Virus record (IMG/VR): IMGVR_UViG_3300045988_137301
From: a virus
Strand: one strand, 5' to 3'
DNA length: 64,000 bases
Within the stretch, counting starts at the first letter, position 1; every line of letters begins with the position of its first letter. Positions 1 through 35,724 of the stretch are shown here, one piece after another. Both the position numbers and the translations under genes were made by a program. The notes beneath the pieces are model-generated. The model searched no databases. It was given only the letters and a program-made list of their open reading frames with translations, and was not told the origin of the DNA.

Positions 1-1699
1 AATGGTATTTCCATTGTTGAATCCCATTAAGCTATAGTTACCAGCGGAACCTCCCTTCAAAGAAAAACTAACAAGATTGTTTGATAGCACCTTATCCCCA
101 TTATACTCTAAAGTAATTACCTCTGTTGTGATCTTTAATTCTAAGGTATGTTCAATATTAGGATCATCTACTACCTAAGCTGTTATTTTTTTTTCTTGCT
201 AGGATTTCTAAAATAACTACGATATATCTACCCAGGCAATAGAGTCTATTATTTCCTCTGGGTCTAGTTTTACTCCAATTATCTCTCCGCTAGAAGAGTC
301 CGTAATACATTGATCATATTTTATATTTGCAACCTTAAATGTTCCAGATTGAGATCCATAGCTTATCTTGACGTTAAAGGGACCAACTCTATCAGATATT
401 ACGGAAGTGGTAGCGATAGCGTACATAACAATTCCAACCTTGATATTTTTATCGGAATTATACTACATTAGTAATGTTTTGTCTGCTTTTGTGTATATTT
501 TGTCAGAGTTATTATTTAACATTACCCCATATACCATGATACCATAGGAATAAGTTGGTGTAACTACTGACACTTCAGCCTGTACGGTTTCTCCGTTTCC
601 TTTATGTAATGTTAGAATACTACTCTCTACATCATAGTCCATAGAAGTTATATCCTATCCTTCGGCGCTGTCTATTTTTCTACATAAAAAGTCTTCAACC
701 TACATTCCAGACTTTCCATTCCATGCTTCGTCTGTGTTTTTTATTCGATTGGCATCTCCTAATTCTTCAAACTTTGCCATTTTTTAGTAAATTAAGTATT
801 TTTCCATGTATCATCTTGTAACCAAGGTCTATCTTGTATCCATGTACCACTGCCAAAACAACTTTTAATAGCATACACAGTAAGCCAAACCAGCTAAGAA
901 CCCTTGTATATAGCTCCAATATTTTTCTAAACCTTCTATTGAATTTCGTTTACTAATCCAAGAACGTCCTTTTGGACCTATAGTATTAGCTTACCATTTC
1001 TATATATCATGACTTAGCAAAATCTTCTTTAACCTTAGTTTTTATCTAACTTAGCAAAGTTAAATATTCATTATATTCTTCTACGACGCTTTCGTCTGAA
1101 CTTAACTACTAAGTATAGCTATTGTAGGAATTTATTAAATCAAACTCTTCATCTATTTTAATAAATGCTCTTATTATAGCTTTTACACAATCTTTATAAT
1201 TTGGTTGACCAGTTAGGTAAACCTGAATGAAACTGTACTAGGTTTCGATTTCCGTTCCTAATTCACTTCCCTCTTTAGACACTTCCACTTCTACCTCTTG
1301 TATGTCATAGTTATAGTAGTAGGAACCGTTTCCCAGTTTTTGAATCGTCTAAGGGTAAGTGTTTGCTTGTATTCTTCTTGGCTCTATCATACGGTGTGAC
1401 TTTAAAATTTATAGGAAATTCATATTTAAGTAACTAGTAGAACAGCCTTCTGCTGTTACTCTAAAAATAATAAGATTTATGATTGTAAATAAAATGCACT
1501 CTAAAACTCTTATTATAACTAACAATTTCGACAACGTGTATGTATTTGTTGTAGAATTTGGAAATGTTAACCCTCTACCCGTTCCAGTTAGAGAATTTTA
1601 ACCCTGTTAATTTTTCTATCTTTTGCCAAGTGGCAAGGACACTATTTATTTGAATAAATTAGTATGTGAAATGTTTATATAATAAAGCTGACATTGGAA

Positions 1700-1796
1700 T
1701 TGGCATTGCTGACTCCATTGTTAGAATTGAAATAGCTAAGCCTGGAATTGGACCCATTATTAGCGTTGCCGCCTACTAGCAGTGTTTTTTAGCCAA
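1700..1796 (-). repeat. Decayed AT-shifted copy of the Gly-rich 3' module of the tail-fiber gene, without a start codon
   Basis: Minus strand translates as KTLLVGGNANNGSNSRLSYFNSNNGVSNANSN, parallel to LRVGGSAFGSASGLGYFSSFTGVG of the adjacent tail fiber. Nucleotide alignment to 1905..1968 is recognisable. A TAA immediately precedes it. Confidence 0.45.
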
Positions 1797-1856
1797 CCAA
1801 CAGTATTATAAATAGCATCCTGTTATTAATTTAATATTTAAAATATTTATGTAAAA

Positions 1857-3929
1857 TCAATTCATTCTCGTAAGGCTTCGGAAGCCGACAGCGAAACCGG
1901 CAAGGCCGACCCCAGTGAAAGAAGAGAAATAGCCAAGCCCGGAAGCGGACCCAAAAGCGCTGCCGCCCACCCGCAGCGTCCTAAGAGCCGTAGAGGAAGC
2001 ATTACACCAATGATAGTCACACATATAAGTGGAAGCTGAGCCTCCAGTGGAAGAAGGAATAATTTCTCCAGTCTCTCTTAGGTCAAAAGATTTTATGTAT
2101 CCATCAGAAGCTATCTCAGAACCTGCAACTGTCATATCTTCTACTGTGTCTTTGAATAGGGAAGAATTTGAGGTGGTATATACTTCACTTGGCTGATTAG
2201 CAGCACTTCTCTATAATATTATTCCGTCTAGATTAGTCCAAATATCTCCAAAGGGATTATCAAAACCTCTCCATCTTGGAACCCAGAAATCATGAGTAGG
2301 TACTGTTACTGTTTCGCTTACAGTAGTTTCAGGAATAGTTAATTTCTTAACCCCAGAAAAATTACCAAACTCATTACAGTATCCACATGGAGTTATTGGA
2401 TTAGTAGAGTTATAACCACTCCAGGAGGTTTCTGTGTTCTACCAATCAGTAACTCCTGGTCCCATTCCTCCCTAATGATATCCATCAGATGTTAGCTCTG
2501 AGTTATAGGTATCCTGACAATTAAATGACGCATATTCTATTACATAATTCCAATAGAATATCCATTTATAGAATTCATAACACATTAACTCAGACCCAGC
2601 TGCCTAGGCATATCCTCTCATTACTGATCTTGAAAGATTTGTTCTTGGTTTTCCTAAATCAGTTCTGAATTTATCAGATTCAAGATAACTATCATAACTA
2701 TCCCTATTAGAACCTCCCCTAAACTAAGTTGTTGTGTTTACAACAGAAACAGCCTTCGGAGTTAAGGTAGTGTCTACAGTACATCTATATGCGTCTACCA
2801 ACATTTCTGGTATTTCTATCCAGGTGCTATCAATTCTTACTGTAGATATTCGTACCCATCTTATATCCCCATTCTATCCTGATTTTCCGTAGAATTTAGG
2901 AATGTGAACTCTAACTGTACCATCTGTTCCATCCAGTATCGAGTCTTCTCCATTTACTTTTTTGGACCAATCATTAGGATCTAAGTAGTAGTTTATAACA
3001 GAGCCATTAGCTACACATCCTTTGTATGCAGACTAGATCGGGAGAGATTTATGTAATAGTGGGTTACCTATCCTAGTAAGTTTCGGATCAGATACATTTA
3101 TATCCCACTGCACTCCGTAGGAATAAAGATCTTCATTACTACTTATCTCATTTATAGACTCCTGCATTGATTGCTATTTCTACTATATCAAGTTAAACTA
3201 TGCCTCTAATTTTGTACTGGTATCTGACCACTGAGCGGTCCCATCAGACTAAAAAACTAACATCTAACCTTCCTGACCTCCAGAGGGGATATGTTTGTTT
3301 CCAGAGGTAGAAGGATGAACGTAATTATTAGCATTGTTTTCTATCCCCTACAACTTCCGTTTTTCCTCGGAAGTATAATCATTTGTGGATAAACCTTTTC
3401 CCTCCTCTGATGTTACTTTAGACTAAAGCTCTGTATTTAATTCTTCTTCAGTAACCAAACTGTCAAGAATTCCTTGCAAGCCAGCAACGTCAGCAACGAC
3501 ATGGTTGTGAGCCTTGTCTGCCTTGGTTGCCAGTCCGTCAGTTACTTCAGTCTTAGTAGCTTTCTCATCCAGAGCGGTCTGCAATCCGGTGATGTCAGTA
3601 ATAGCGTGATCATGAACTTTGTCTGCTTTACTATCTAACTGTGTCTACAGATTTGTTATATCGGAAATTGAATGACTATGACCTATGTCTGATTTTTCCT
3701 CAAGAGAATCTAAGACTTCTCCTATATTTGTATCGTGAAGTTGTAATTCCTGAGCGAGTTCTTCTAGAGTATCTAAAGATTCCGGTGCAGCTCCAACAAG
3801 CTACTTAATTTTGTTATCAACTTCCTATTTACTAGCATAGGTCTCTGTAATTCTGTTTCCATTACTGTCATAGGTAGCTTTTATATCAAAGATCTGCCCT
3901 TTTACCTTAATATTTTTTATAGCTGACAT
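1857..3929 (-). CDS. Tail fiber protein (~690 aa) with multiple in-frame TAG codons (read as Gln)
   Basis: ATG at 3929, TGA at 1857-1859, start and stop in the same frame. N-term verified nucleotide-by-nucleotide: MSAIKNIKVKGQIFDIKATYDSNGNRITETYASK(Q)EVDNKIK(Q)LVGAAPESLDTLEELAQEL. Rougher translation further in shows HxH / DITGLQ repeats and 'EEKRKL(Q)GIENNANNYVHPS...GG(Q)EG(Q)MLVF(Q)SDG', a classic tail-fiber motif that is only canonical with TAG=Gln. C-terminal 92 aa matches the listed ORF. Confidence 0.65.
1905..1968 (-). repeat. 64-nt GC-rich segment identical (reverse complement) to 29242..29305
   Basis: Direct comparison: 64/64 identity. Encodes GGSAFGSASGLGYFSSFTGVG at the tail-fiber C-terminus. 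Local GC is far above the window background. Confidence 0.8.
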
Positions 3930-3930
3930 A

Positions 3931-4119
3931 TTATTCAATAATTAGTACCTCGTCACTCACAGTATGTTCATCTATTTTCTCTTCTAATTCTAATTGAAGA
4001 TCTTCTTTAGTGACATAATCTTCTAAAATTGAAGGGTCTACTCCCCCATAAAAGTTTCCAGTCATTTTTACTGGCTAAGTAGCTTTTTTAAACTATCCTT
4101 CTAGATAAATTATTCCCAT
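3931..4119 (-). CDS. Small hypothetical protein (62 aa) with 2 in-frame TAG
   Basis: ATG at 4119, TAA at 3931-3933, traced codon by codon: MGIIYLEG(Q)FKKAT(Q)PVKMTGNFYGGVDPSILEDYVTKEDLQLELEEKIDEHTVSDEVLIIE. Lies directly upstream of the tail fiber. Confidence 0.35.
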
Positions 4120-10100: not shown

Positions 10101-10819
10101 TAGTAACTATCGAAGTTTAGTCAGTAAATCAGTTTCTCTTGACTGCATTATATAATGAACAACATTCTAAGCAGCTATCTCATACTAAGAAATGAAGGAC
10201 TAATCAATATCCTAAATTATTTTGTCTAGCTAAGTCTTTACAGCTTTATCAGTAATATCTTTTCCATCTATGAACTACAAAATCGAGTTTGTAAGATGGT
10301 CCTTTAGAAACTTTACAATTCCTTCTGTAATTTTTAACTATTTCTCTCTTGTTATATTTGTGATAGTATCAGAGTCCTTGCAAGATATTTTAGGGAGTAT
10401 AGGAGTTCCTAGATATTCTCCCACCAGAGCATCAACATGTTTTTTCAATAGTGGAGTAAATTCTACAGATGTAGGAGAACCTATCCCAAAATTCTCTTCT
10501 AAATATCTAAACTATTCTGGGTCTCTTTTTCCATTGTAGTAATTATAAGCTTTCTACAATTCATACTTGTTATAAACAAGCTCCGCAATAGCCTCGTTTG
10601 TCTTGTCTATTAACTCTTTCTCTTTCATAACATAAATTATGTTGTTCTGGAGGAAGTTTAGTAGCGTTATAATATTTAACTCTCTATAGCTTCCTATTTC
10701 TTAATTCTTCCTTTATAAAGGGAAGAAATTCCTCATCTGGTAAGTCTGCTATTATTACTAGAGGCATTTCTGATCTGTCAAAATTAAAAGACACCTTATA
10801 TCCAACTGGATATAAATCC

Positions 10820-13186
10820 TCAATTTCTAATCCCCCTATATACTCCATCTTGTATAAGTCTTTCATATACCCGAGTATCACTTGTTTCAATTCTGTATGG
10901 GTCATTGTATTCTTCTCTCTATATATCAAATTCGGGAGGTTTTCTATCTGGAATAATTCCAAATCTTTTTATTCCTTTCTCATCATAATAGTAACCAAAA
11001 TCTCTAAACTATTCAACCTCTTTTCTTACAAATGATGGCTATCTTCCGGAAAGTTCCTAATCAGCTAGTTCAGTCATACCCATAGCTGCAATTATATCGA
11101 ATTTTCCTTTGTTCTCATCATTATATCCAGTTAGCTATTCTAACATCTCTTCAAACCATATAGTATGGCAATAATCTTCTACAAAAGCAGCCGTTAAGTT
11201 AGTATGCTATTCTATAACAGTTTTGGTAGCAGGAGTTCCATATTGTTTAGTGCTTCCATATTTTATATCCGTTAGGGTAGCCTTTGGTCTTTTCATGAAA
11301 TATCCTAAATATCCCTTTTCTTTTGCCCAGGTAACCATACTCATTCTAGTAGCTTCTATATTTATCTTACAATTATAATATCTAGCTAGGCACATAGCTA
11401 TCTTATATGCCTCTCTAATATCTCCTGGCCTATCCTTATATAGAGCTACATACTAAGGCTCATTAGTTCCAAATAACCTTTTCTTTATAGTTATACAAAA
11501 GTCAGAAGGGTTTCTAGTTTCCTTAGAAGTCTAGTTAGCACCAATATCTATTCCATCTATCCCTGCTACGTACAAATCATTCATTTCCTTGTAGACGGGC
11601 ATCTCGAACTCCTCTCCTCTTTCTTCTGCTTCCTGCCTTAGTTTCTCTACTTGCTCCTTGTATAAGTCCGACCATACAGGGTGCTCTAGAATTTTTACTT
11701 TCCCCTTATTATTTGGAATCCACTTAAATCCATCAATATTATCCTAAGTATGTTTATTGTTTTTATAGAAATAGTCTATATATCCAACCTCTATTCGTGG
11801 ACCTATTTTCTTCAACCTGATGTTAGCTAACTAATCTGCAATAAGTATTTTATTAAACTTATTTATTCCCTCTAAGTTGAAAGCCTCTTCAGCATTCCAG
11901 CAACGTTCTGCACATTTTTTTAGGTAGTCCTCTGGTACAGCTAATAGATTATCCCGCTCCTCCTATAAGAATTTTTTATACTCCACAGTATTACATACTC
12001 CTCTGTGGTCCATGAATTCTGGATTCAAAGATTGTATAAAGTATGGAATAAAGAATCCACTCTCTATAGTAGTTCCGTCCTGAGTCCAATTATGTCTAAA
12101 TGGGAGAACCTTATAAGCTCTAGGATTATAATAGATTTTTTTTAAACCTTCCAAGGGAGCGCCCATATCTCCACCAGTTCCTCCAAATAACATGGTCCCA
12201 CGAGGCATACCCTACACCTCACAAAGTTCTTGACCTTGTACTACAGCAGTGTCAAGTCCTGGCCAAGATCCTGCCTCATCATATATTAACAAATCAACAC
12301 GATCTCCTCTAATATTAGATGGCTTGGAACCATTTTTTCCAACTACCTCTGATTTGAATCCTATGTCTTCAAACTAACCATTTACTTTTATCTATTTTCC
12401 AGATTTTTTTCTCAAATCCTAGTCAATTAGGCGTAGTTTGAAAAATCCTCCGCCTGTACAGGTATTTAAAAACGTCAAAGCATTGTCAAATTTACTGAAC
12501 GTTCCCTTAAGGAACATATCATTAAAGCAGGTAATCATGACTCTACTTCTTCTAATAACAGAATACATACGAGCGGAAAGAGAGGCGTTTATTTCAGAGA
12601 AACCTATTGAACGAGCTTTCATTAAGGCCGCATGCTTATGTAGCACCCTAGCCATCTATAGATAATGAAAGAACATATAATGTGATGCAAAGAATATTGG
12701 GAAGTCATTATCAGTACCCTCACCAGAGGCTTTCTACTAGTCAATAGTAGGTAATTGATAGAAGTTTAAGAAGAAGTAATTATCTCCAGTAATGGTATAT
12801 CCATTAACTGTCATTCCATACTTACATCTTCTATATTGTTCCTTCCAGAACTCATTATATCTCTTACTATCTCTAAGGTAGGGACAATACTAACCAGTTC
12901 GCCTATATATTTCTCTGGTTTCTGTAAACCAATCTGGATCAAAATCAAGACCATGTGTTTCGTCAATAGGTCTATATCCTGTTATTTCGTAAGATAAGGT
13001 AGGATCAAATACTTCTATTTTTTCTCCCTTTTTAACATCCCAGTAATCTGCATTCTTGTCTCTCTCTTCTCTTATTTTCTAGACAAGCTGCCTCGCTTCC
13101 TAGGCGTCCTCTTTGTATTCTTTTTCCTTTACCTAATCTATTATACTCTATATTTCTTCAGGCAATATTTTCTTCTTCCTTGGCAT
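10820..13186 (-). CDS. terL: Large terminase subunit-like protein (~788 aa) with many in-frame TAG
   Basis: Frame traced from ATG ~13186 to TGA at 10820-10822. Contains a Walker-B-like RVDLLIYDEAGSW and a nuclease-domain-like DLYVAGIDGIDIGANQTS. Embeds listed ORFs 12419..12655, 11963..12208 and 11207..11395 in one frame, joined through TAG codons. Confidence 0.5.
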
Positions 13187-13188
13187 AA

Positions 13189-13749
13189 TCAAAAGTCTCC
13201 TGGGTCATAACCATCAACTGCTCCTGCTCTTACAGTTGACTGTTCTGTAAGTTCTTTCTTAACCTAATCTTCTAGAGTTACCAATTCCTCATGAACCTTA
13301 TGTAAGGTGGCCATTTCTTTCATTACCTTTTCTGCCTAGAATATTGGTTTTCCGTTATTATCCCGTTCATTCAGATCCACAATAGTATCAAAATAGTCAA
13401 TAAACTAGTCCGCAGCTCTCTTTGCGGCTTCAAGCAACTTGATTGATTTGTTGGAATCTTGCAATGCTCTATATTTTCTGCAAGCTTCTCTAAATATAGG
13501 ATCATTAAATTCTGACTCAGTTAGTCCAGAGTCACTAATTGCTTCGTCATGTCTCTCATGTTCTGAATATTGACTATACGGACTTTTCCAATCAATAGCT
13601 AGATAGATATATGTTAGTTCTCTAGTAGCCCTATCTTTTTCGATAGATTTATCTCTCTATATTAAGGCTTTAAATTCCTTTACTAACAAAAGCTCAGGTT
13701 CATTTATTTCTAGCTACTTATTTAAGGTATTGTAATTAAACACATTCAT
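13189..13749 (-). CDS. Hypothetical protein (~186 aa), candidate small terminase, with in-frame TAG
   Basis: ATG at 13749, TGA at 13189-13191, 2 nt upstream of the terL ATG. MNVFNYNTLNK(Q)LEINEPELLLVKEF... Confidence 0.35.
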
Positions 13750-14630
13750 ATAACATTGGCATAAATCGTTGATTTGTATTATTTTCTTCTAACCTTAGAG
13801 CCACATTTCATTTTAGCTCCACATTTTCCTTTTCTTTTCATAACTATTAAGGTTTTCTGGGATCGTGTCCACTTTTCTTACTATTAAAATAATCTTTCTC
13901 GCTCGCTCTATTTTTCTCCTCTTGAGTAGCTTCCTTTGGATTAAATCTAGGATATTTGGTTCTTCCATTTAGGTCCTTAATACCTTTCTTGGTATGAATA
14001 GTATCATTAGGATTAATGGATTTTCTTTCCTATTTGAACTTCTGCACTGCATTTAATTTCTTCTATGTTTTTCCTCCCTTTTCCATCTATTTCTTTTGGC
14101 AGGATTTACATAGCTTTCCCCCTACTTTAAAGTAAGTCATTTCATAGCCATCGGGACATACTCCTTTTAATTTTTTATAATATTGTAGCTTTGCTCCTAA
14201 TCGAGCCATTACTCCTCCCTACATTTTCTGTATAAATTCTTGATATTTGGCTTTTAGTCCTTCTTCTCCTAGTTGTTCGGCGTAGGACTGTAAATCCTAT
14301 TCTGATTGTAGCTAAATTCCCTAGGCGGCCGCATCTTGAATTAAATAGGCCATAAATGCTTTTTGTAATTCTTCCTGATTTTCCATTGTTCCTTTAATTT
14401 CTATTTATTATTTTATCTAACTATCCTTTATTAGGATAAGGTCTTTGGTATTGAATATCGCTTCCTGAAGTAATCCGCTATCGGTAAACCATCTACACCT
14501 TAACCCTTTTAATCCCTGGTTATCTTTAAATAATGCTGCCTCTTTTCTTAGTACAAGCATTACTGGAGAGTGCATTAACTCGTGCTATCTTAGAGTAACG
14601 CAATCCCCAGGCTTAAAATAAATTTTCTCA

Positions 14631-23511: not shown

Positions 23512-24804
23512 GAAAGGGGAGAAATCCCTTTTCTTTTAAATACAAATAATCTTTGTAGAAATGAACATAAGAAAAAAGTTTAAAACTATAAAGTGTTTGT
23601 ACAACTGGGGAACAATCTACAACCCAGAGACTGATGAAAAGTTAAACTTTAAGACTAAGCGAGTTTATTGTATAGCTTCTTGGGCTTGGGTCATGACCTA
23701 TCAAAAGTCAGAAAAGGATATTCCGGAAATAATCAGGATTGTCTTTGTAGATTAACTCTAAGGTACTATGAGTTATAAATAAAGTGCCCATATGAACCCC
23801 ATCATTGGAACATTGGTTAACGGGGGAAAACAACATCACAACAAATCAAAGTTTTCTGTTTAGTTTTAGGATTATATCTGGCAGCTTGGAAAGACAAGCA
23901 AATTGTGTTACTAATAGATTTAATGCTCATCTAGGGATTTTGGAGGAGAAAGGAAAGAAATTGTCCACTAAAAAGACCCTCAATTTCCGGACTTTTTCAA
24001 ATTCTCAAAAAACCTGCCAGAGTAGGAGTTATATAGCTCATACTCTCTATGAAAATTATCTAGTGTTTAGTCTGTAAAAAGACACCAAAAAGAAGGGTTA
24101 CGCAGAAAAGCCCAACACCAAAAATAACTGCTACAAATCTCATGTGCATATTCGCAAACTTAAGCACTATAGGATTTAGGTTGAGCTGTAAGGATTGGTC
24201 ACTTATAGCAATATTATGAGTACTGCTGATATGTCAGTGACCGCACATATTACATATAAAATATGTTATACGATTATGTTAGAAGTTGCCAGGTCTAAGA
24301 AGCCTGATTAAAATCTCTAGATAGTAAGAGAGAACCTCATAAGGGTTCATTTTCCATCTCGAACCTATTCGCAAGTTTATAGACTAGCTATCTATAAATT
24401 TAGTGAACGTTGATAACGTCCTCAGCATGGAAAACTGAGAAATAATCTCCTATCTTATTCTAGATATAGATAGGATTTCCCTACTGGTATAATGGATTAC
24501 ATCTCCCTTTAAAGGAGAAGATTCTGGCTCAAGTCCAGAGTAGGGAACTATTTAGTTGGATGTAGTCATATTATTATAATTATTATTGGATCATAATGGG
24601 TATGCCCTGAGACTATGTAGTTGTTGTGAAACAACTCAAAGTATTGTGGCACAGGAAGGCCTAACTTCTTTTCACTATTTATAGACTAAAAGGCACAGCG
24701 GTGCCTTTACTCTCAAGATAAGAACAACCTTTACGTGGTTTGAGAGATAAGTAAGCTATTTTAGCTGAAACTAATAGTTCTAGTAACAATTAAAAATATT
24801 CATC

Positions 24805-28531: not shown

Positions 28532-29446
28532 ATGAGTATGGAAATGGATACTTGCCGGAAATCTGGTATTGAGGAAATCTCTAATTATGCAGTGAGATTA
28601 CAGGACAAAGGCGATAAAGAGGCTAGAGAGAATATTGATAAACTAATGATCTTTTATGTGTCATTGGGATGTAAATTCGCAACAAATGAAAAGGTAATAA
28701 GCAAGGCAAAATATTGTGTAACCTGTTATAGAAGACAGTGTATAAGGGTAGTCATAGAAAAAGATGAGTTTCATATAACAAAGGATGAATTTTATATAGC
28801 GAATGAGGAATATTTCTCCAAACAGGGAATAAAAGTACTCAATATAGATGAATACATGAAGCTTATTACCAAATTATCAAATAAACAAATAATGATGAAA
28901 AAGACTATCGAAATTGAATGTCCAGATGGCTACAAGCCTATCTACAATGCCGAAACAGGTAATGTTGAAATTGTTCCAGAGAATATTATGGGACTAATAA
29001 AGACCTATGAGGATGCTAGAGACTATCTTAGTATTAGAAATGAAGTTTCTTATAATAGATCTGCAGATTCTTTGGCTAAGCTGCAAATAATTCTAGATGC
29101 ATTGAATGAAGGATATAAATTCGATCTGCTGACTGGAATTGTGTGGTATCCTTGGGTTCGTTTCTTTAGAATGAACTCAGTGCCGAAAGATGCAGAAGTC
29201 ATTGGACACTTCCGTTATCAGGGCGAGAAATTCGCACTGGTGGGCGGCAGCGCTTTTGGGTCCGCTTCCGGGCTTGGCTATTTCTCTTCTTTCACTGGGG
29301 TCGGCGATGCCTATTCCTTTGTCGGGATGCTTGCATGCAAATCCAAGGAGATTGCCGAATATGTATCAACTCAGTTTGGAAAGCTAGTGGTTGATGCTTG
29401 TTTTGCAAGACACTTTAAAGGAGAAGAATTTGAATGGCTTGACTAA
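28532..29446 (+). CDS. Protein with C-terminal Gly-zipper-like module shared with the tail fiber and with 33722..34363
   Basis: Listed ORF. ...LVGGSAFGSASGLGYFSSFTGVGDAYSFVGMLACKSKEIAEYVSTQFGK... Confidence 0.55.
   Translation: MSMEMDTCRKSGIEEISNYAVRLQDKGDKEARENIDKLMIFYVSLGCKFATNEKVISKAKYCVTCYRRQCIRVVIEKDEFHITKDEFYIANEEYFSKQGIKVLNIDEYMKLITKLSNKQIMMKKTIEIECPDGYKPIYNAETGNVEIVPENIMGLIKTYEDARDYLSIRNEVSYNRSADSLAKLQIILDALNEGYKFDLLTGIVWYPWVRFFRMNSVPKDAEVIGHFRYQGEKFALVGGSAFGSASGLGYFSSFTGVGDAYSFVGMLACKSKEIAEYVSTQFGKLVVDACFARHFKGEEFEWLD
29242..29305 (+). repeat. 64-nt GC-rich segment identical to the reverse complement of 1905..1968; a 22-nt core also recurs at 34185..34206
   Basis: Direct sequence comparison. 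Confidence 0.8.
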
Positions 29447-29916
29447 TGAAAAAGTTCCTTGTATTTATGCTTGCTATGCTCTGGATGAGCATAGCAGCTT
29501 TTTCTCAGATAACCATATCTCAAGAAGATTATGATAGGTTGCCCAAAGAGGCAAGAACTCAAATTGAGAAAATAACTACTGAGAAAACTATAAAGGGGGA
29601 AATGTCTGAATATGCAAATCTTGGAAGAGAAATTGGAATTGCTGTCAATGAAACATTAAAAGCGGTTGAAGATTCAGCTGTAAGAATATCCAAATCTGAT
29701 CTAGGACAGACAGCAATAGCTATTGTAGTATGGAAATTGTTGTATAAAGAAATAGCTGGAGTTGCAGTAGGTACTGTGCTATTAGGAATGTCCCTATATT
29801 TATTAATAGTTGGAAGAGGAAAATTATCCAAGAATAGTGAAGATGCTGGTGGTTGGATAAGCATAGTCAGCAGTGTGGTAACTTTCATATCTTCTATGTT
29901 CTGTATGTTCGGTTAA
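29446..29916 (+). CDS. Membrane protein (N-terminal signal/TM and C-terminal TM segments)
   Basis: Listed ORF with hydrophobic ends. Confidence 0.45.
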   Translation: MKKFLVFMLAMLWMSIAAFSQITISQEDYDRLPKEARTQIEKITTEKTIKGEMSEYANLGREIGIAVNETLKAVEDSAVRISKSDLGQTAIAIVVWKLLYKEIAGVAVGTVLLGMSLYLLIVGRGKLSKNSEDAGGWISIVSSVVTFISSMFCMFG

Positions 29917-29926
29917 AGAATTGTAA

Positions 29927-30016
29927 GGAGGTGTAACCCTAATTGGTAAGGGAGTGGTCTTGAAAACCACCAGTAGTCGGTAACACGGCGTGCGGGTTCG
30001 AGTCCTGCCACCTCCG
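29927..30016 (+). tRNA. tRNA-Ser(TGA), type II
   Basis: Acceptor ggaggtg/cacctcc; anticodon gtggt-cttgaaa-accac; long variable arm; T arm gcggg-ttcgagt-cctgc. Confidence 0.75.
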
Positions 30017-30196
30017 CATAGGAAGTACTGCTGGTGCACAAGTGAGTACAACGTAACACCAAGGTTTTGACGAGTTCATGTAAGTTTAGCCCTTGTATTA
30101 GGCGTATCCTAGTTGTCCTTACTACACAGGATGTGGGTTGGTGTAGAAACCTTCTTTTTCAGCTAAGGTTAGAAGTGAAACAAACCTCAGCTTTAC

Positions 30197-30270
30197 GCGA
30201 GCTTAGTTCAGTTGGTTAGAACGTCGGTCTCCAAAACCGAATGTCGGGGGTTCAAGTCCTTCAGCTCGTG
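30197..30270 (+). tRNA. tRNA-Trp(CCA)
   Basis: Anticodon tcggt-ctccaaa-accga; D stem gttc/gaac; T loop ttcaagt; acceptor gcgagct/agctcgt with G1.U72. Confidence 0.75.
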
Positions 30271-30485
30271 CAAATATTAATATCAAAATTTTATGAAAAG
30301 AATTGAACTATTTTGTATAGCAGTTGCTGTGGTGATAGCAGTCTGTTGTTCGTTTACTTCTAGGGGAAGCCAACATTATTCGGTTGAGAAGGTATATACC
30401 AACCCTAATAGTCACATGAATATCTATAGAGTCTCCATTCCTGGGGAATATATTACGTACTCCATAATACGACTCAGGGAGGGTT

Positions 30486-31016
30486 ATGTACACTAAAATG
30501 AGCGAAGTTTATTATCTTTTAGCTGCCACTTCGTATGGTATTTTCATTGTTCAATTTGTATTATCTTGGTTTGGTGGGGATACTGATTTGGATGTAGACC
30601 TAGACGGAGAGATAGACATGAACGTAGGGGATATAGTGTCATTTAAAGGATTCATTCATTTCCTAATGGGAGGTTGTGGTTGGTTATCCATCAGATGTTT
30701 CAAGCATGGAAATGTAGAATGGTATGATTATCTAATAGCCTTGGCGCTTGGAGTAATATTTGTGGTTATACTTTACTATCTATATAAACTTTGTTTAAAA
30801 CTCCAACATTCCTGTATACCTGAAAAGGGAGAAAGATTAGTAGGAAAGGCTGCTACTATTTATTTACCTGGAGATAGTTATTATTTACTAACTCTAGAAA
30901 TCAATGGTATTTCAGAAGAAATTTCTGCCTATCCGGAATCTAGTAACATGGCATATAAACAGGGAACTGATGTCATTATTACACGGTATGAAGGAGGAAA
31001 ATATTATTTCAACTAA
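30486..31016 (+). CDS. Membrane protein
   Basis: Listed ORF with several hydrophobic helices. Confidence 0.45.
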   Translation: MYTKMSEVYYLLAATSYGIFIVQFVLSWFGGDTDLDVDLDGEIDMNVGDIVSFKGFIHFLMGGCGWLSIRCFKHGNVEWYDYLIALALGVIFVVILYYLYKLCLKLQHSCIPEKGERLVGKAATIYLPGDSYYLLTLEINGISEEISAYPESSNMAYKQGTDVIITRYEGGKYYFN

Positions 31017-31028
31017 TAAAAAATCATT

Positions 31029-32984
31029 ATGTTAGAAATGCTGATTATAGCAGGAGTTGTAATACTCTTAGCGGTATTGACCATCATTGGGTTGTTGTCT
31101 CGATATAGAAAATGTGCCAGTGATGAGATCTTGGTAGTGTTTGGTAAGGCAGGAAAGAAGAAGGTAGTTAACGAGAAAACCGGTAAAACAGAAGAAGTTA
31201 TACTACCATCTAAAATCATTCACGGTGGAGGTACATTCGTAATGCCAGTTATTCAGGACTGGGCTAAAATGTCTTTGAAGCCTATTCAGATTCAGGTGAT
31301 GGTAGAGGGAGTATCGAGCCAAATGATCAAGGTTAGGATTCCCGTAACATTAACTACTGGTATAGGAACCGATCAAGTACTAATGCAAAACGCTGCGAGT
31401 AGATTCTTAACAGCTAAAACTTCTGAAATCTCAGATCAAATCAAGGATATTCTCATTGGTGAGGTGAGAAGCTTGATGGCGACAATGACGATTGAGGAAA
31501 TAAATGCTGATAGAATCAAATTTATCGGCAAGGCAAAAGAGAATATTGAAACTGAGCTGAACAAGGTAGGTTTCAGTATTATCAACATTAACAACGCTGA
31601 CATCTCAGATGATGCAAACTATATCAAGAATCTTGGTCAGAAAGCTGCAACCAAAGCTCTTGCTCAGGCACAGGCTGACATTGCGGAAGAGAAGAAGAAA
31701 GGAGATATTCAGATTGCAGAAACTAACAAGCAGCGTGAGATTGCTGTAGCTGATGCTGAGAAGGAAAGAGAAACTACAGTTGCTCAGACTAAGCAGGAAC
31801 AGGAAGTAAAGGTTGCTGAAATTAATCAGGAGAAAGCTATTCGCTTGGCAGAAGCAGAGAAGAACAAACAAGCTGGTATCGCTGAACAGAAGGCGGAACA
31901 AGAAGCTAGTATTGCTCGTGCAAACACTCAAGCAGAATCAGCTAAAGCTGAAGCTGAATCTCAGAGAATAGCTAATGTAGCGAAATCTGCTTCAGAGGCT
32001 GCTTCTAAGAAAGCCGCTGCTGACGCAGAAGCAGAAGCTAATGTAGCTAAAGCTAAGGCGGAAGCAGATTCTAAGAAGGCTGAAGCTGAGGCTTTGAAGC
32101 AAACTCGTATTGCTCAAGCTAAGCAAAAGCAAGAAGCAGACACTCAGAAAGCAATTAATGAGCAAGAAGCTGCTACTGCAGAATATGAGTCTCAGAAAAG
32201 AATTAAGGCTGCAGAAGCTGACAAGCAAGCTGGAGTAGCTGAGCAGAAAGCAACTATTGAAGTATCAAAGGCTAAAGGAGAGGCTGCACAGGCACAAGCC
32301 GAAGCAGAAAAGGTAGCTGGTACTTCCAAGGTAGAGGCTAAAATGGCTGTAGCTAAAACAGAACAAGAGCGTCAAATTGAAGTTAACGAAGCCGCTGCTA
32401 AGGCAGAGGAAGCAAAACTCCAAGCTGAAATGATTGTTCCTGCTCAGAAACAAAAAGAGAAGGTAACTATTGAAGCAGAAGCAATTAAAGCTAAGGCGGT
32501 ATTAGAAGCAGAAGCAGAAGCTGCAAAGATTTTGAAAGAAGCAGAAGCAAAAGCTGACGCTACTAAACTGCAGTTGGAAGCAGAAGCAGAAGGTACTCGC
32601 AAGAAGTTGCTTGCTGAAGCTGAAGGTAAGAGAGCATCATTGATGGCAGAAGCTGACAAAGTTCAAGCTATCGAAATGGCTCCAGCCTTAGCAGTTGAGA
32701 AGATGATTGAATCTGGCTTAACTCCACAGATGGTGGTTCAGTACAAGACTGTCGATCAATTAGCTGGTATTGCTCAGGCATCTGCTCAGATGTTTGAACA
32801 CATTCACCTTGGACAGGTTACTGTTTATGGTAATGAAAATACTGCAGGTAACTTCATGGCCAAAACCGCAGAGAATTTAAGTCCTGCTCTTGACTTGCTG
32901 CGTTCTATTCCTTTTGCCGATACAGTAAAGGATATGTTTGGCAAGAAACAAGTAGAAGCAACTGAATTTGAGGAAATGAAGTAA
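31029..32984 (+). CDS. SPFH/flotillin-like membrane protein with ~400-aa Ala/Glu/Lys-rich coiled coil
   Basis: Listed ORF. N-terminal TM segment, band-7/flotillin-like region (IIHGGGTFVMPVIQ...), then a long EAEAKA-type low-complexity coiled coil. Confidence 0.6.
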   Translation: MLEMLIIAGVVILLAVLTIIGLLSRYRKCASDEILVVFGKAGKKKVVNEKTGKTEEVILPSKIIHGGGTFVMPVIQDWAKMSLKPIQIQVMVEGVSSQMIKVRIPVTLTTGIGTDQVLMQNAASRFLTAKTSEISDQIKDILIGEVRSLMATMTIEEINADRIKFIGKAKENIETELNKVGFSIININNADISDDANYIKNLGQKAATKALAQAQADIAEEKKKGDIQIAETNKQREIAVADAEKERETTVAQTKQEQEVKVAEINQEKAIRLAEAEKNKQAGIAEQKAEQEASIARANTQAESAKAEAESQRIANVAKSASEAASKKAAADAEAEANVAKAKAEADSKKAEAEALKQTRIAQAKQKQEADTQKAINEQEAATAEYESQKRIKAAEADKQAGVAEQKATIEVSKAKGEAAQAQAEAEKVAGTSKVEAKMAVAKTEQERQIEVNEAAAKAEEAKLQAEMIVPAQKQKEKVTIEAEAIKAKAVLEAEAEAAKILKEAEAKADATKLQLEAEAEGTRKKLLAEAEGKRASLMAEADKVQAIEMAPALAVEKMIESGLTPQMVVQYKTVDQLAGIAQASAQMFEHIHLGQVTVYGNENTAGNFMAKTAENLSPALDLLRSIPFADTVKDMFGKKQVEATEFEEMK

Positions 32985-33045
32985 TTGCAGCGAAAGGGCT
33001 TTACAAAAAAGATAGTAAAGTATAACAAAAGCCCTTTCGCAACTT

Positions 33046-33133
33046 GGAGGTATGGGTGAGTGGTCTAAACCAGAGTCCTGCTAAGACTCCGGGCCTCAAA
33101 AGGGTCCCGCTGGTTCGAATCCAGCTGCCTCCG
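33046..33133 (+). tRNA. tRNA-Ser(GCT), type II
   Basis: Acceptor ggaggta/tgcctcc; anticodon gagtc-ctgctaa-gactc; long variable hairpin cgggcc...ggtcccg; T arm ctgg-ttcgaat-ccag. Confidence 0.75.
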
Positions 33134-33157
33134 CATTAACTTAAATAATTATTAGGT

Positions 33158-33721: not shown

Positions 33722-34363
33722 TTGATAATTATGATGACAAGAAATGTAACACTTACCCTTGAAAAGGCTAGGGAGTGGTTTAACAGCGGCAACGCAGAAC
33801 TTAAGGAAATTGCGCTTCAAGCATTTACAGAAAAGGAATTAGCTACTCCTAATTTTAAAATCATTAAGACCTTTGAAGATGCTATGAATGCTCTTCAGTT
33901 TGAGAACACCTCGAAATCATTTGTATGGAATCATATTAAACAAGTCGCTAGAATTTCTATTGCATCTGCGGCTATTATAAAGTTAAATATCATTCGAAGA
34001 GCTCTTAACCTTGGAGAAAATATGGAATTTACAAAGGGAAATATCTATTATCCTTATAATCCATTTATAACTAAGTCCAGCACTTATTATGATAATGAGA
34101 TCAAGGAAGGATTAATGTCTGTGGTGGCTGAATTCGAATACAAAGACCAACGGTATCGCCTGATGGGCGGCGTCGCTGGTGGTGGGTCCGCTTCCGGGCT
34201 TGGCTGTTTCGGTTCTTACGGTGGGGTCAGCTTTGCCGATTCCGCTGTCGGCTTCCTTGGTTGTGCCACTAGAGAGATTGCACAGCATTTTGGTAAATAC
34301 TTTGCCAAAGAGATCTTTGATGCTAAATATGGTGACACTGTGAAGTATCAGTGGATAAGATAA
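33722..34363 (+). CDS. Paralog of 28532..29446 carrying the Gly-zipper-like C-terminal module
   Basis: Listed ORF. ...LMGGVAGGGSASGLGCFGSYGGVSFADSAVGFLGCATREIAQHFGKYF... Confidence 0.55.
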   Translation: MIIMMTRNVTLTLEKAREWFNSGNAELKEIALQAFTEKELATPNFKIIKTFEDAMNALQFENTSKSFVWNHIKQVARISIASAAIIKLNIIRRALNLGENMEFTKGNIYYPYNPFITKSSTYYDNEIKEGLMSVVAEFEYKDQRYRLMGGVAGGGSASGLGCFGSYGGVSFADSAVGFLGCATREIAQHFGKYFAKEIFDAKYGDTVKYQWIR

Positions 34364-34585: not shown

Positions 34586-35182
34586 TTGCACCAAAACATT
34601 TGGTATTATGATTATTTTCATATATATTTGTATATGAATTACAATGATTATAATACACAGAAGTTAAGAGGTTTAAAGCGCAAATTAGAGCTGGTAAAAT
34701 CTCGTGGTGGTAAATGTGAACTATGTGGCTATGATAGAAACATAGCTGTTCTAGAATTTCACCATATCAATCCAGATGAGAAAGAGTTTCAGTTAGATAT
34801 GAGACATTTATCTAATACAAGTCTAGAAAGGCTTAAAGAGGAAGCAGATAAATGTCAACTTCTATGCGCTAATTGTCATAGAGAAGTACATAATCCTCAC
34901 TTGGGAATGGACGAAGTTGAAGATTTAGTTAATACTGAAGCCAAAGATAAGACGTCTTTTGAAAACATGACTGGGTCTGTATGTCCAGTATGCGGCAAAA
35001 GATTTCCTAAATCGAAGGGTAAGATATACTGTTCTAAGGAATGTAGAGATGCTGATAAACATTATCCCTCCCTAGAAGAAGTAAATGAGCAGTATGAAAT
35101 ACTTAAGAATTGGGAGAGAGTTGCACAGCATTTTGGATTAACTCGCAGAGTTATTCAAGGAATAAGAAAGAAAGACTCATAA
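34586..35182 (+). CDS. HNH homing endonuclease (inside the split tRNA)
   Basis: Listed ORF. CELCGYDRNIAVLEFHHINPDEKEF...LLCANCH is a His-Me finger motif. The real start may be an internal Met. Confidence 0.6.
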   Translation: MHQNIWYYDYFHIYLYMNYNDYNTQKLRGLKRKLELVKSRGGKCELCGYDRNIAVLEFHHINPDEKEFQLDMRHLSNTSLERLKEEADKCQLLCANCHREVHNPHLGMDEVEDLVNTEAKDKTSFENMTGSVCPVCGKRFPKSKGKIYCSKECRDADKHYPSLEEVNEQYEILKNWERVAQHFGLTRRVIQGIRKKDS

Positions 35183-35313
35183 TGTCAAGGTCGTCGGTTC
35201 AAGCCCGGCTAGGCCCACATCAGAGAATACAGATTGATATGTCTTGAGTAACATATGATCTGTGGGAGCGGTACTCCAGTAACTAGAGAGTTTTTCATTA
35301 AAAATAAAGATTT

Positions 35314-35724
35314 ATGAATTATCAGTATTTTGGATTGTTCCTAGATGAACCAACTAGAAACAAACTTATGCAAGTTATCATTGGAAATCCCATCATTTCT
35401 AATCTGGTGTTCCAAAGAGGAAGTACTATTTATTTAGACCATTGCACTCTCCTCCATAAGAATCAACATGAAGAAAAGATGGCTAATAGCCTACAATATC
35501 GTATAGATGATAGTTTTCGATTAATTGTAAGTAAGATAGGGATTTCTGAGAAAGCAATAGCTTTTGGAGTAGAATTGGGAAACCAACATCTACCCTGTGC
35601 AAATGCCAAACCTCATATTACTATCTGTACAATCAATGGAGGTAAACCAGTGAATAGTAATGAGATTTGTAATTGGATTCCTATTCCAGAATTTAGCATT
35701 TATGGCACTCTTAAAAAAATATAA
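35314..35724 (+). CDS. 2H phosphoesterase superfamily protein (LigT/cyclic phosphodiesterase-like)
   Basis: Listed ORF with two H-x-T-x motifs, DHCTLLH and KPHITICT. Confidence 0.5.
   Translation: MNYQYFGLFLDEPTRNKLMQVIIGNPIISNLVFQRGSTIYLDHCTLLHKNQHEEKMANSLQYRIDDSFRLIVSKIGISEKAIAFGVELGNQHLPCANAKPHITICTINGGKPVNSNEICNWIPIPEFSIYGTLKKI

What the first reader, a model, noticed from the sequence alone, without database searches (positions are those of the whole stretch)
29242..29305. Gly-zipper-like C-terminal module shared by the tail fiber and two genes in the early/tRNA region, maintained by a 64-nt identical GC-rich segment
The tail-fiber C-terminus (GGSAFGSASGLGYFSSFTGVG...), ORF 28532..29446 and ORF 33722..34363 share a GxxxG-rich hydrophobic module. 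Copies 1905..1968 (minus strand) and 29242..29305 are 64/64 identical at nucleotide level, at roughly twice the background GC. A 22-nt core recurs at 34185..34206, and an AT-decayed startless copy lies just downstream of the tail fiber (1700–1796). Nucleotide identity across 27 kb implies recent gene conversion or recombination. Possibilities are a cassette-exchange system for tail-fiber tips (host-range variation), a membrane-insertion or oligomerisation domain, or a shared RNA-level element.
Basis: seen in the sequence. Interest (0 to 1): 0.7.

Follow-up and report, generated by a model that had tools for sequence, protein, structure and literature searches.

The report
Broken retroelement diversifying phage tail fibre
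The repeated GC-rich module is the set of variable regions of a diversity-generating retroelement in a crAss-like gut phage; this well-known hypermutation system has lost its reverse transcriptase here, and its repeats now appear to swap sequence by ordinary recombination.

Summary
The exact identity is 67 nt: 1905-1971 (-) equals 29239-29305 (+). The interpretation misses what the repeats are.

The "AT-decayed copy" (1685-1776, -) is the template repeat (TR) of a diversity-generating retroelement (DGR). The three GC-rich copies are variable repeats (VRs). They differ from the TR at 20-24 of its 25-27 adenines and at only 1-2 of about 64 other bases.
- VR1 ends the TAG-recoded tail-fibre gene.
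- VR2 and VR3 lie in two small paralogous early-region proteins (phrog_11581, unknown function).

In 30 related IMG/VR genomes with a full-length reverse transcriptase (RT, found in 27 of 30), the tail fibre and the VR2-protein homologue both match their own TR. They diversify independently: the longest shared stretch is 28 nt.

In the window lineage a ~1-kb deletion removed RT residues 1-320. The VR1/VR2 identity includes a shared 3-nt deletion and covers only the 5' part of VR1. That is the wrong polarity for retrohoming. The allele sits at VR2 in four other assemblies.

The best reading is VR2-to-VR1 gene conversion in an RT-less DGR remnant. DGRs, multi-target DGRs and incomplete crAss cassettes are all published, so interest is modest.

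The parts
1685..1776 (-). Template repeat (TR), 92-nt core with 27 adenines. Non-coding, 106 nt downstream of the VR1 core (83 nt past the tail-fibre stop codon). In frame it would read LLVGGNANNGSNSRLSYFNSNNGVSNANSNVSF, i.e. AAY codons at the variable positions.
   Evidence: Identical in the JGI strain L001/L012.
1882..1970 (-). VR1, the variable repeat at the C-terminus of the tail fibre. 22 of 25 TR adenines are changed and 1 of 64 other bases. It has a 3-nt deletion relative to the TR.
   Evidence: Homologous tail-fibre fragments are hypervariable at exactly these positions.
1857..3929 (-). Tail-fibre (receptor-binding) gene, DGR target 1. It has 18 in-frame TAG codons read as sense and a TGA stop. 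About 52% identical to the 'tail protein' of crAss-like phages cr7_1 and cr85_1; C-terminal part matches phrog_5302 'tail protein'.
1905..1971 (-). The 67-nt tract of VR1 that is identical to VR2 (29239-29305). Inferred to be a gene-conversion patch copied from VR2.
   Evidence: Outlier against 30 control genomes.
29240..29328 (+). VR2. 20 of 25 TR adenines are changed and 2 of 64 other bases. It has the same 3-nt deletion as VR1.
   Evidence: The same allele sits at this locus in L003 (one substitution), L004 and L007, and the closest GenBank relative ct8Lf7 has a 98%-identical VR2 protein.
28532..29446 (+). DGR target 2, a 304-aa early-region protein. Its 183-aa C-terminal core is homologous to a ~186-aa protein family (phrog_11581, unknown function). 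The VR lies about 40 residues before the stop codon.
   Evidence: Fold not assignable.
34163..34254 (+). VR3. 24 of 27 TR adenines are changed (18 to G) and 1 of 65 other bases. Nearly invariant among strains.
33722..34363 (+). DGR target 3, a 213-aa paralogue of target 2 (about 35% identity, same phrog_11581). No counterpart within 8 kb of VR2 in 30 related genomes.
1371..1625 (-). Reverse-transcriptase remnant. Only the C-terminal ~85 residues remain (66% identical to residues 321-405 of the 411-aa RT of relative L020). The fingers and palm, including the GxxxSQ and YADD motifs, are deleted.
   Evidence: tblastn E 4e-30. DNA alignment jumps over ~1033 bp of L020. No RT motif anywhere in the window.
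1620..1638 (-). Conserved hairpin of the TR-RT spacer (CCTTGCCACTTGGCAAAAG), equal to the first stem of Rfam RT-17. The rest of the motif was lost with the RT deletion, whose junction lies just 3' of this hairpin (about 1619).
1019..1390 (-). Conserved gene that follows the RT in intact cassettes (cr7_1 gp04 homologue, phrog_11557, unknown function). It marks the end of the cassette and shows where the RT should be.

Best explanation
The four repeats are one template repeat (TR) and three variable repeats (VRs) of a diversity-generating retroelement (DGR) in a large crAss-like phage.

How an intact element of this lineage works: the TR is transcribed, and the reverse transcriptase (RT) encoded just downstream copies it into cDNA, misincorporating opposite adenines. 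The cDNA then overwrites the VR at the 3' end of a target gene and rewrites the ligand-binding residues. That mechanism is established knowledge for DGRs; it was not tested here.

Targets here: the tail fibre (VR1) and two small paralogous early-region proteins of unknown function (VR2, VR3), 27 and 32 kb away.

State of the element in this genome (shown): a ~1-kb deletion has removed the catalytic part of the RT and most of the TR-RT spacer RNA. The element cannot diversify on its own.

Origin of the identity (inferred): the 67-nt VR1/VR2 identity is not a product of retrohoming. It is a patch copied from VR2 into the 5' part of VR1 by ordinary homologous recombination (gene conversion) between the repeats. 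In the RT-less lineage this appears to be the remaining way the tail-fibre tip changes.
For: Adenine specificity. VR1, VR2 and VR3 differ from the TR at 22/25, 20/25 and 24/27 adenines, but at only 1/64, 2/64 and 1/65 other bases.

Hypervariability confined to those codons. This holds in tail-fibre homologues and in >800 homologues of the VR2 protein.

Two-target architecture in relatives. 30 IMG/VR genomes carry both targets. Each matches its own TR at almost all non-A positions (62-63 of 63 in most genomes) and differs at about 13-25 of 23-30 adenines. A full-length RT sits next to the TR in 27 of the 30.

Canonical order in relatives. The order target-VR-TR-RT-gp04 is seen in cr7_1, L019 and L020.

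RT loss here. Only RT residues 321-405 remain and about 1033 bp are missing. The JGI strain has the same deletion. There is no RT motif elsewhere in the window or in 9.8 kb beyond its start.

The identity is abnormal. In the 30 controls VR1 and VR2 agree at 48% of adenine sites, with a longest run of 10 sites and at most 28 identical nt. Within-genome similarity equals between-genome similarity (p=0.29). The window has 18 consecutive agreeing sites, 67 nt and a shared 3-nt deletion, P about 2e-6.

Direction of transfer. The deletion-bearing allele sits at VR2 in L003 (one substitution), L004 and L007. The JGI genome carries it at VR2 while keeping a different VR1. ct8Lf7 shares that different VR1 allele and has a 98%-identical VR2 protein.

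Polarity. The patch covers the 5' part of VR1, and the 3' 24 nt stay as in the JGI allele. Retrohoming is anchored at the 3' end (PMC5758913).

Other exchanges among the repeats:
- P0036 has a VR1 whose 5' half is the unmutated TR translation.
- L017 is a VR2::VR3 junction.
- L021/P0001 is a tail-fibre::VR3 junction.
Against: - The window covers only about a third of a probable ~180-kb genome, so another RT elsewhere cannot be excluded.
- VR2 has at least four alleles among closely related strains. That could mean recent RT activity in some of them.
- The mosaic VR1 allele is seen only in this window, so an assembly or consensus artefact is not excluded.
- The window's tail fibre also carries about 21 private SNPs at 2064-2919. 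The VR1 patch may therefore have arrived with an inter-strain recombination tract rather than arising in this genome.
- The TR-to-VR1 patch (P0036) is known only at protein level, because the contig could not be fetched.
- The C-type lectin fold expected for DGR targets could not be shown.
Confidence: 0.72

Rival explanations
1. The DGR is still active in this lineage. An RT is supplied from elsewhere in the unsampled part of the genome or in trans by a co-infecting related crAss-like phage. The VR alleles, including the shared one, then reflect ongoing mutagenic retrohoming followed by an occasional exchange between VRs.
For: - VR2 shows several alleles among near-identical strains, all differing at TR-adenine positions.
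- One assembly breaks exactly inside VR1 (L013), as expected for a heterogeneous site.
- The TR is perfectly preserved and identical in two strains.
- Trans action of DGR components is experimentally known (PMC5758913).
Against: - The deletion also removed most of the TR-RT spacer RNA. Only the first hairpin of the RT-17 motif remains. In characterised DGRs that spacer is needed for cDNA priming (my knowledge of the Bordetella phage system, not tested here).
- All three VR1 alleles known in the lineage can be derived from one allele plus 5' patches copied from VR2 or from the TR, with no new adenine-site mutation.
- No close full-length RT was found with the remnant as query, although that search had low sensitivity.
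Confidence: 0.2
2. The 67-nt identity is an assembly or polishing artefact. VR1 is heterogeneous in the source sample, and the assembler or consensus step filled it with the abundant, fixed VR2 sequence.
For: - The mosaic allele is not found in any other assembly.
- Duplicate VRs in multi-target DGRs have been suspected to be assembly errors before (PMC5758913).
- Hybrid short contigs (L017, L021) could themselves be chimeras.
Against: - An internal patch needs two switches, at shared stretches of only about 9 nt on each side. That is shorter than usual assembly k-mers, so reads spanning both junctions must exist.
- The same kind of 5' patch, from the TR, appears in an independent JGI contig (P0036).
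- Hybrids come from different projects and assemblers.
Confidence: 0.12
3. The identity is functional. The early protein must carry the same binding surface as the tail fibre, for example to mask the receptor or exclude superinfection, so selection or a dedicated mechanism keeps VR1 and VR2 matched.
For: - Both proteins are rewritten from the same template.
- In the window they share 21 of about 29 VR residues.
Against: - In 26 related genomes with the same 29 TR adenine positions, VR1 and VR2 are no more alike within a genome (0.486) than between genomes (0.478), permutation p=0.29.
- In the JGI strain, VR1 and VR2 differ; the closest GenBank relative ct8Lf7 carries the same, different VR1 allele.
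Confidence: 0.03
4. One reading: a Gly-zipper-like membrane or oligomerisation module, or a cassette-exchange system or RNA element unrelated to reverse transcription.
For: The module is glycine-rich. Exchange between copies does seem to occur.
Against: - No Pfam family matches, including glycine-zipper families.
- Several of the glycines arise from A-to-G changes at TR adenines that are fixed to G in nearly all relatives.
- The adenine-specific pattern and the adjacent RT in relatives define a DGR.
- No recombinase was identified among the neighbouring proteins searched against Pfam.
Confidence: 0.02

Closest known systems
DGRs of crAss-like phages (crAssphage LMMB, cr7_1, Epsilon and Zeta crAss-like phages; PMC7290462, PMC11054128, PMC12386605)
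   Same: - Same layout in relatives: tail-fibre target, VR, TR, RT, with no avd gene.
- The target is homologous to the cr7_1 'tail protein' (about 52% identity).
- The RT of relatives is a Pfam RVT_1 protein with IGNYLSQ and YADD motifs.
[quoted passage not shown]
   Different: - One TR serves three targets, two of them non-structural early-region proteins 27 and 32 kb away.
- The papers read here describe only tail-fibre or receptor-binding targets. The Zeta phages Lera and ct1yV3 are described as having three TR-VR pairs, each with its own TR.
- Exchange of sequence between VRs is not described there.
Multi-target DGRs with non-adjacent targets (Treponema denticola, Legionella, cyanobacteria; survey in PMC5758913)
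   Same: - A single TR matches several VRs in different genes.
- In phage-associated DGRs the non-adjacent targets lie within 50 kb, as here.
- 5' boundaries of mutagenesis differ between targets.
   Different: - In those systems each VR carries its own set of adenine-site changes. Duplicate VRs were flagged as possible assembly errors.
- Here a 67-nt tract is shared and can be traced to a donor VR.
Bordetella phage BPP-1 DGR (Mtd / TR / Brt / Avd), the mechanistic reference
   Same: - Adenine-specific TR-to-VR information transfer.
- It rewrites the C-terminal receptor-binding residues of a tail fibre.
- AAY codons in the TR.
   Different: - No avd gene here.
- No extended GC-rich IMH/IMH* pair or significant downstream hairpin.
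- The RT is truncated in this genome.
- No sequence similarity to Mtd.
Gene-conversion antigenic variation from silent donor copies (e.g. Neisseria pilE/pilS, Borrelia vlsE)
   Same: Works alike only in the inferred secondary process: segments from non-identical repeated copies are pasted unidirectionally into an expressed surface-binding gene.
   Different: - No evidence of a dedicated mechanism here.
- Only a handful of events have been seen.
- The donors are themselves expressed genes or the TR.
- This is an analogy, not membership.

Membership tests
Diversity-generating retroelement (DGR) | TR/VR repeat pair whose differences are almost exclusively at TR adenines | tested here: met
   66 of 70 substitutions across the three VRs are at adenines: 22/25, 20/25 and 24/27 adenines changed, against 1/64, 2/64 and 1/65 other bases.
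Diversity-generating retroelement (DGR) | DGR-type reverse transcriptase encoded next to the TR | tested here: not met
   Only residues 321-405 of the RT survive (window 1625-1371). About 1033 bp carrying all catalytic motifs is deleted. No RT motif elsewhere in the window or 9.8 kb upstream. The feature is met in relatives: cr7_1, L019, L020 and 27 of 30 IMG/VR genomes. The window therefore holds a DGR remnant, not a complete DGR.
Diversity-generating retroelement (DGR) | VR lies at or near the 3' end of a protein-coding target gene, with variable sites at first and second codon positions (AAY in the TR) | tested here: met
   VR1 ends 8 codons before the tail-fibre stop. VR2 and VR3 end about 40 codons before their stops. 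The TR reads N (AAY) at the variable positions.
Diversity-generating retroelement (DGR) | Population-level hypervariability confined to the VR | tested here: met
   Tail-fibre fragments follow VGGxAxxGGxAGLGxFxSxxGVGxAxSxVGFR. The 186-aa family shows the same pattern with the rest nearly invariant. Shown mainly in RT-bearing relatives; in the RT-less lineage only a few alleles are seen.
Diversity-generating retroelement (DGR) | Target VR displayed on a C-type lectin (or Ig) fold | tested here: inconclusive
Diversity-generating retroelement (DGR) | Accessory gene avd (or HRDC) | tested here: not met
   The gene following the RT slot has no Pfam hit and belongs to phrog_11557, unknown function. 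This feature is not universal: crAss-like DGRs of this architecture lack avd (PMC7290462).
Diversity-generating retroelement (DGR) | IMH at the VR 3' end with IMH* at the TR 3' end, often followed by a hairpin | tested here: inconclusive
   TR-VR homology stops about 4 nt after the last variable adenine (GTC(A/G)GCTT), and no extended GC-rich element is shared. Short palindromes follow VR1 and VR2, but their folding energies are not better than shuffles, z about -0.15.
Diversity-generating retroelement (DGR) | Structured spacer RNA between TR and RT | tested here: inconclusive
   Rfam RT-17 matches at 30.2 bits here (gathering score 40.4), with only the first hairpin confidently aligned. cr7_1 gives 38.6 bits exactly between its TR and RT. 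That this motif is the DGR spacer is my inference from its position.
Glycine-zipper (GxxxG) membrane or oligomerisation modules | Hydrophobic helix with a GxxxG repeat matching a glycine-zipper family model | tested here: not met
   No Pfam family at E<=0.01 for either early protein or the tail-fibre C-terminal domain. The segment is rich in Ser, Gly and aromatic residues and sits in a receptor-binding tip. Several glycines correspond to TR adenines fixed to G.
Invertase-driven tail-fibre switching (Mu Gin / P1 Cin type shufflons) | Site-specific recombinase gene next to inverted crossover sites flanking alternative fibre ends | not tested
   No systematic recombinase search of the whole window was run. 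The proteins flanking VR2 and VR3 that were searched show none. The repeats are explained by the TR relationship.

The most novel reading that the evidence does not exclude
After loss of the reverse transcriptase, the leftover DGR repeats (the TR, VR2 and VR3) serve as a small library of donor segments. Homologous recombination pastes these into the 5' part of the tail-fibre VR, and the same repeats mediate an inversion (VR1xVR3) and a deletion (VR2xVR3). A dead hypermutation element would then keep generating new receptor-binding tips in a cassette-like, RT-independent way. Linked to this, the conserved ~186-aa early-region protein would be an undescribed class of phage DGR target on a scaffold that matches no solved fold.
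Probability: 0.3. Interest if true: 0.55.

Novelty: new member of a known kind. Interest (0 to 1): 0.36.

Why it matters
It turns an unexplained repeat into an annotated system:
- a three-target DGR in a ~180-kb TAG-recoding crAss-like gut phage;
- a defined RT deletion;
- a second, non-structural target family (phrog_11581) that is massively diversified in relatives and has no known function.

For DGR biology it gives a concrete, testable case in which VRs of one element exchange sequence with each other and with the TR without reverse transcription. This bears on two questions:
- how to read duplicate VRs in multi-target DGRs (real exchange or assembly error);
- whether 'incomplete' cassettes, which are the majority in crAss-like phages, are evolutionarily inert.

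For phage-host work, the tail-fibre tip and the early protein are the obvious candidates for host-range and host-interaction determinants in this abundant gut phage group.

Tried and rejected
Searches for the RT
- Regular-expression scans of all six frames with TAG read as sense found no RT.
- Translation of window 1-1900 showed none.
- The 9.8 kb beyond the window start (L001) holds only structural genes.
- Walking past the window's 3' end failed. The last proteins occur only on 1-2 kb contigs.
- A homology search with the RT remnant gave no close full-length RT. Sensitivity is low because TAG-recoded genes are called as fragments.

Searches for the same genome
- megablast against GenBank phages: no match.
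- Exact TR/VR pattern in IMG/VR: none.
- The same pattern in JGI metagenome contigs: only two short hits.
- Exact look-ups of P0004, P0036 and the window's own VR1 ORF were not on record.

Fold assignment
- BFVD returned only uncharacterised homologues.
- The tail-fibre fragment model failed.
- The afdb50 library was unavailable.
- PDB sequence searches were empty.

Hypotheses rejected
- Convergent selection as the cause of the identity. It is ruled out by the shared 3-nt deletion and 18 consecutive sites.
- One cDNA homing into two targets. The polarity is wrong, and the allele is fixed at VR2 in genomes with a different VR1.
- A requirement that VR1 match VR2.
- The L002/L006 VR2 region looked like a 'decayed' VR at first, with changes at non-adenine positions relative to the window's TR. 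The 186-aa family to which it appears to belong is an active target of a different TR type. L002/L006 themselves were never compared with their own TR, so this is an inference.

Literature
- Searches for ct8Lf7 and for RT-17 in a DGR context found nothing.
Full report
**1. The observation**

The repeat is real. The longest exact match between the two loci is 67 nt: 1905-1971 on the minus strand equals 29239-29305 on the plus strand. The repeat finder gives 87-nt arms at 92%.

A third copy at 34163-34254 (+) and an AT-rich copy at 1685-1776 (-) also exist. A pattern made of the AT-rich copy's non-adenine bases finds exactly these four places and none in 100 shuffles.

GC content is 58-64% in the three GC-rich copies, 43.5% in the AT-rich one and 34.5% in the window.

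**2. What the repeats are**

I aligned the AT-rich copy with the three GC-rich ones and counted differences by base.

| Copy | TR adenines changed | Other bases changed |
|---|---|---|
| VR1 (1882-1970, -) | 22 of 25 | 1 of 64 |
| VR2 (29240-29328, +) | 20 of 25 | 2 of 64 |
| VR3 (34163-34254, +) | 24 of 27 | 1 of 65 |

This adenine-specific pattern is the signature of a diversity-generating retroelement (DGR). The AT-rich copy is the template repeat (TR) and the GC-rich copies are variable repeats (VRs).

In frame, the TR reads LLVGGNANNGSNSRLSYFNSNNGVSNANSNVSF. That is the AAY-codon design typical of DGR templates. The high GC content of the VRs follows directly from replacing A with G, C or T.

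**3. The targets**

*Tail fibre (VR1).* VR1 ends a 694-codon frame (1860-3941, -) that is open only if TAG is read as sense. It has 18 in-frame TAG codons and a TGA stop.
- The protein is about 52% identical to the 'tail protein' of the crAss-like phages cr7_1 and cr85_1, through to its C-terminus.
- Its C-terminal part matches phrog_5302 'tail protein'.

*Early-region proteins (VR2, VR3).* VR2 and VR3 lie about 40 codons before the ends of two plus-strand ORFs in the tRNA-rich early region: 28532-29446 (304 aa) and 33722-34363 (213 aa).
- The two are about 35% identical paralogues.
- Both belong to phrog_11581, unknown function.
- Neither has a Pfam hit.

**4. Evidence from relatives that this is a working system elsewhere**

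*Tail-fibre fragments.* Fragments from the large protein collection vary only at the VR positions: VGGxAxxGGxAGLGxFxSxxGVGxAxSxVGFR.

*VR2 protein.* It has more than 800 homologues, mostly 186 aa, on 140-194 kb contigs. They show the same pattern of variable positions and are nearly invariant elsewhere.

*Cassette order.* In cr7_1, L019 and L020 the cassette is target-VR-TR-RT-gp04, with an RVT_1 reverse transcriptase carrying IGNYLSQ and YADD.

*Paired analysis.* I paired the two loci in 30 IMG/VR genomes.
- The RT is full-length in 27 of them. In the other three the contig ends.
- The tail-fibre VR and the 186-aa protein's VR, 22-33 kb apart, each match their own TR at almost all non-adenine positions (62-63 of 63 in most genomes).
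- Each differs from the TR at about 13-25 of 23-30 adenines.

So a two-target DGR, tail fibre plus a small early protein, is conserved in this phage group. No third copy lies within 8 kb of VR2 in those genomes, so VR3 and its gene are specific to the window lineage.

**5. The element is broken in this genome**

No RT motif occurs in any frame of the window or in the 9.8 kb beyond its start.

Probing with the 411-aa RT of L020 finds only residues 321-405, at window 1625-1371 (66% identity, E 4e-30). This remnant is followed directly by the gp04 homologue at 1390-1019.

At the DNA level the window aligns to L020 through the VR, the TR and a conserved hairpin. It then skips about 1033 bp and resumes inside the RT gene. 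The JGI strain (L001/L012) has the same deletion.

The hairpin (1620-1638) is the first stem of Rfam RT-17.
- The motif matches at 38.6 bits exactly between the TR and RT of cr7_1.
- In the window only its first stem aligns confidently.
- Most of the TR-RT spacer RNA therefore went with the RT.

Incomplete cassettes of this kind are reported as frequent in crAss-like phages (PMC7290462, PMC11054128).

**6. The VR1/VR2 identity**

*It is abnormal.* In the 30 control genomes VR1 and VR2 agree at 48% of TR-adenine sites. Much of that agreement comes from sites fixed to G.

| Measure | 30 control genomes | Window |
|---|---|---|
| Longest run of agreeing adenine sites | mean 3.9, maximum 10 | 18 |
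| Longest identical stretch | maximum 28 nt | 67 nt |
| Shared indel | not assessed | one AAT codon deleted in both VRs |

Within-genome similarity (0.486) equals between-genome similarity (0.478), permutation p=0.29. At the pooled per-site match rate, 18 consecutive agreeing sites have a probability of about 2e-6. Independent retrohoming and convergent selection are therefore excluded as causes, and so is a general requirement that the two proteins match.

*Direction.* The deletion-bearing allele sits at VR2 in L004 and L007, and in L003 with one substitution. L003 is the same JGI contig whose VR1 is different (GGHAFNGSSSGLGSFDSGYGVG). The GenBank relative ct8Lf7 shares that different VR1 allele, and its VR2 protein is 98% identical to the window's. 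The allele is therefore native to VR2, and VR1 acquired it.

*Polarity.* The patch covers the 5' part of VR1. The 3' 24 nt are unchanged from the JGI allele. Retrohoming starts at the 3' end and extends a variable distance 5' (PMC5758913), so a 5'-only patch points to homologous recombination rather than cDNA.

*A caveat.* The window's tail fibre also has about 21 private SNPs at 2064-2919. The patch may have come in with an inter-strain recombination tract, and the conversion itself may have occurred in the donor strain.

**7. Other signs of exchange among the repeats**

- P0036, from a 179.8-kb JGI contig, has a VR1 whose first 17 residues equal the unmutated TR translation (TLLVGGNANNGSNSRLS). 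Its remainder equals the JGI allele. This is a non-mutagenic, 5'-only TR-to-VR1 patch. It is known at protein level only.
- L017 joins the VR2 gene to the VR3 gene inside the repeat, which corresponds to a 4.9-kb deletion.
- L021/P0001 joins the tail fibre to the VR3 gene's 3' end and downstream genes, which is the product expected from an inversion.

Each could be an assembly chimera on its own. Together they come from different projects and agree with the window. All three VR1 alleles known in the RT-less lineage can be derived from one allele plus patches copied from VR2 or the TR, with no new adenine-site change.

**8. What remains open**

- *IMH.* No convincing IMH/IMH* pair or significant hairpin follows the VRs.
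- *Another RT.* I saw only about a third of a probable ~180-kb genome, so a second RT cannot be excluded. The several VR2 alleles among close strains leave room for recent RT activity in part of the lineage.
- *Confirmation of the mosaic.* The mosaic VR1 allele has no independent confirmation.

**9. Comparison with what is known, and verdict**

All of the following are published (PMC5758913, PMC7290462, PMC11054128, PMC12386605):
- DGRs in general;
- multi-target DGRs, with about 15% having more than one target;
- non-adjacent targets within 50 kb in phage-associated DGRs;
- DGRs of crAss-like phages, including truncated cassettes.

This locus is a new member of that known kind. By the strict definition it is a remnant, because the RT feature is not met.

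Two aspects were not described in the papers I read:
- the conserved early-region target family;
- the evidence that VRs and the TR exchange tracts without reverse transcription.

Both deserve a read-level check, and they raise the interest above that of a routine DGR annotation. The finding is nevertheless essentially explained by a well-understood system.

Noticed in passing
window 1-13794 (minus strand) versus 25000-64000 (plus strand); tRNA at 24478-24548 (+): Late or structural genes carry 3-34 in-frame TAG codons each and end in TAA or TGA. Early genes have no in-frame stops. The only suppressor-like tRNA in the window has anticodon UUA (cognate for UAA), not the CUA expected for TAG recoding, yet TAA terminates 4 of 8 late ORFs.
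   Followed up: partly
window 24478-45351 (+): Sixteen tRNA genes are interspersed with small early genes. Two tRNA-Ser genes (29927-30017 and 33046-33134) flank a ~3-kb segment (30019-33109) that is absent from relatives L005 and L006, apparently deleted by recombination between the tRNA 3' ends.
   Followed up: partly
L017 (UMLJ01061407.1) 362-458; L021 (ENA SAYO22-1 scaffold_12710) 880-977: Two short contigs from unrelated projects have junctions inside the VRs. L017 joins the VR2 gene to the VR3 gene (4.9-kb deletion). L021 joins the tail fibre to the VR3 gene's 3' end (the product expected from a 32-kb inversion). They may be real isomers or assembly chimeras.
   Followed up: partly
window 30486-32984 (+): A 176-aa membrane protein is followed by a 651-aa SPFH/Band 7 protein. 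The latter has a long Ala/Glu/Lys-rich repeat region, which accounts for the 33-nt-periodic repeat families D1, D4 and D9. This is an unusual cargo for a phage early region, and it sits between the two early DGR targets.
   Followed up: no
window 34586-35724 (+): An HNH endonuclease-like ORF (34586-35182) is present in some strains and absent in others (L009, L021). It lies next to a tRNA-ligase CPD-like phosphodiesterase gene (35314-35724). It looks like a mobile homing-endonuclease insertion beside a tRNA-repair gene.
   Followed up: no
window 29443-29916 (+): The stop codon of the VR2 gene overlaps the start of a 156-aa ORF (TAATG). That ORF is far more widespread in the collection (218 index blocks) than the neighbouring tail-fibre alleles.
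   Followed up: no
window 2064-2919 (-), within the tail-fibre gene: About 21 SNPs are private to the window, mostly transitions. Three other strains (L012, L013, L021) agree with each other at these sites, and the flanking 7 kb is identical. This indicates an inter-strain recombination tract that ends in or next to VR1.
   Followed up: partly
L018 (cr7_1, NC_055895.1) locus 948-1029 (-): A RAGATH-1 hammerhead ribozyme scores above the Rfam gathering threshold (68.6 bits) in the related phage cr7_1. The gene-dense region around it is annotated mostly as hypothetical proteins.
   Followed up: no
L013 (ENA NODE_72, 78.7 kb), contig end = window 1953: An independent assembly terminates exactly inside VR1. 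This may indicate sequence heterogeneity at that site in that sample.
   Followed up: no
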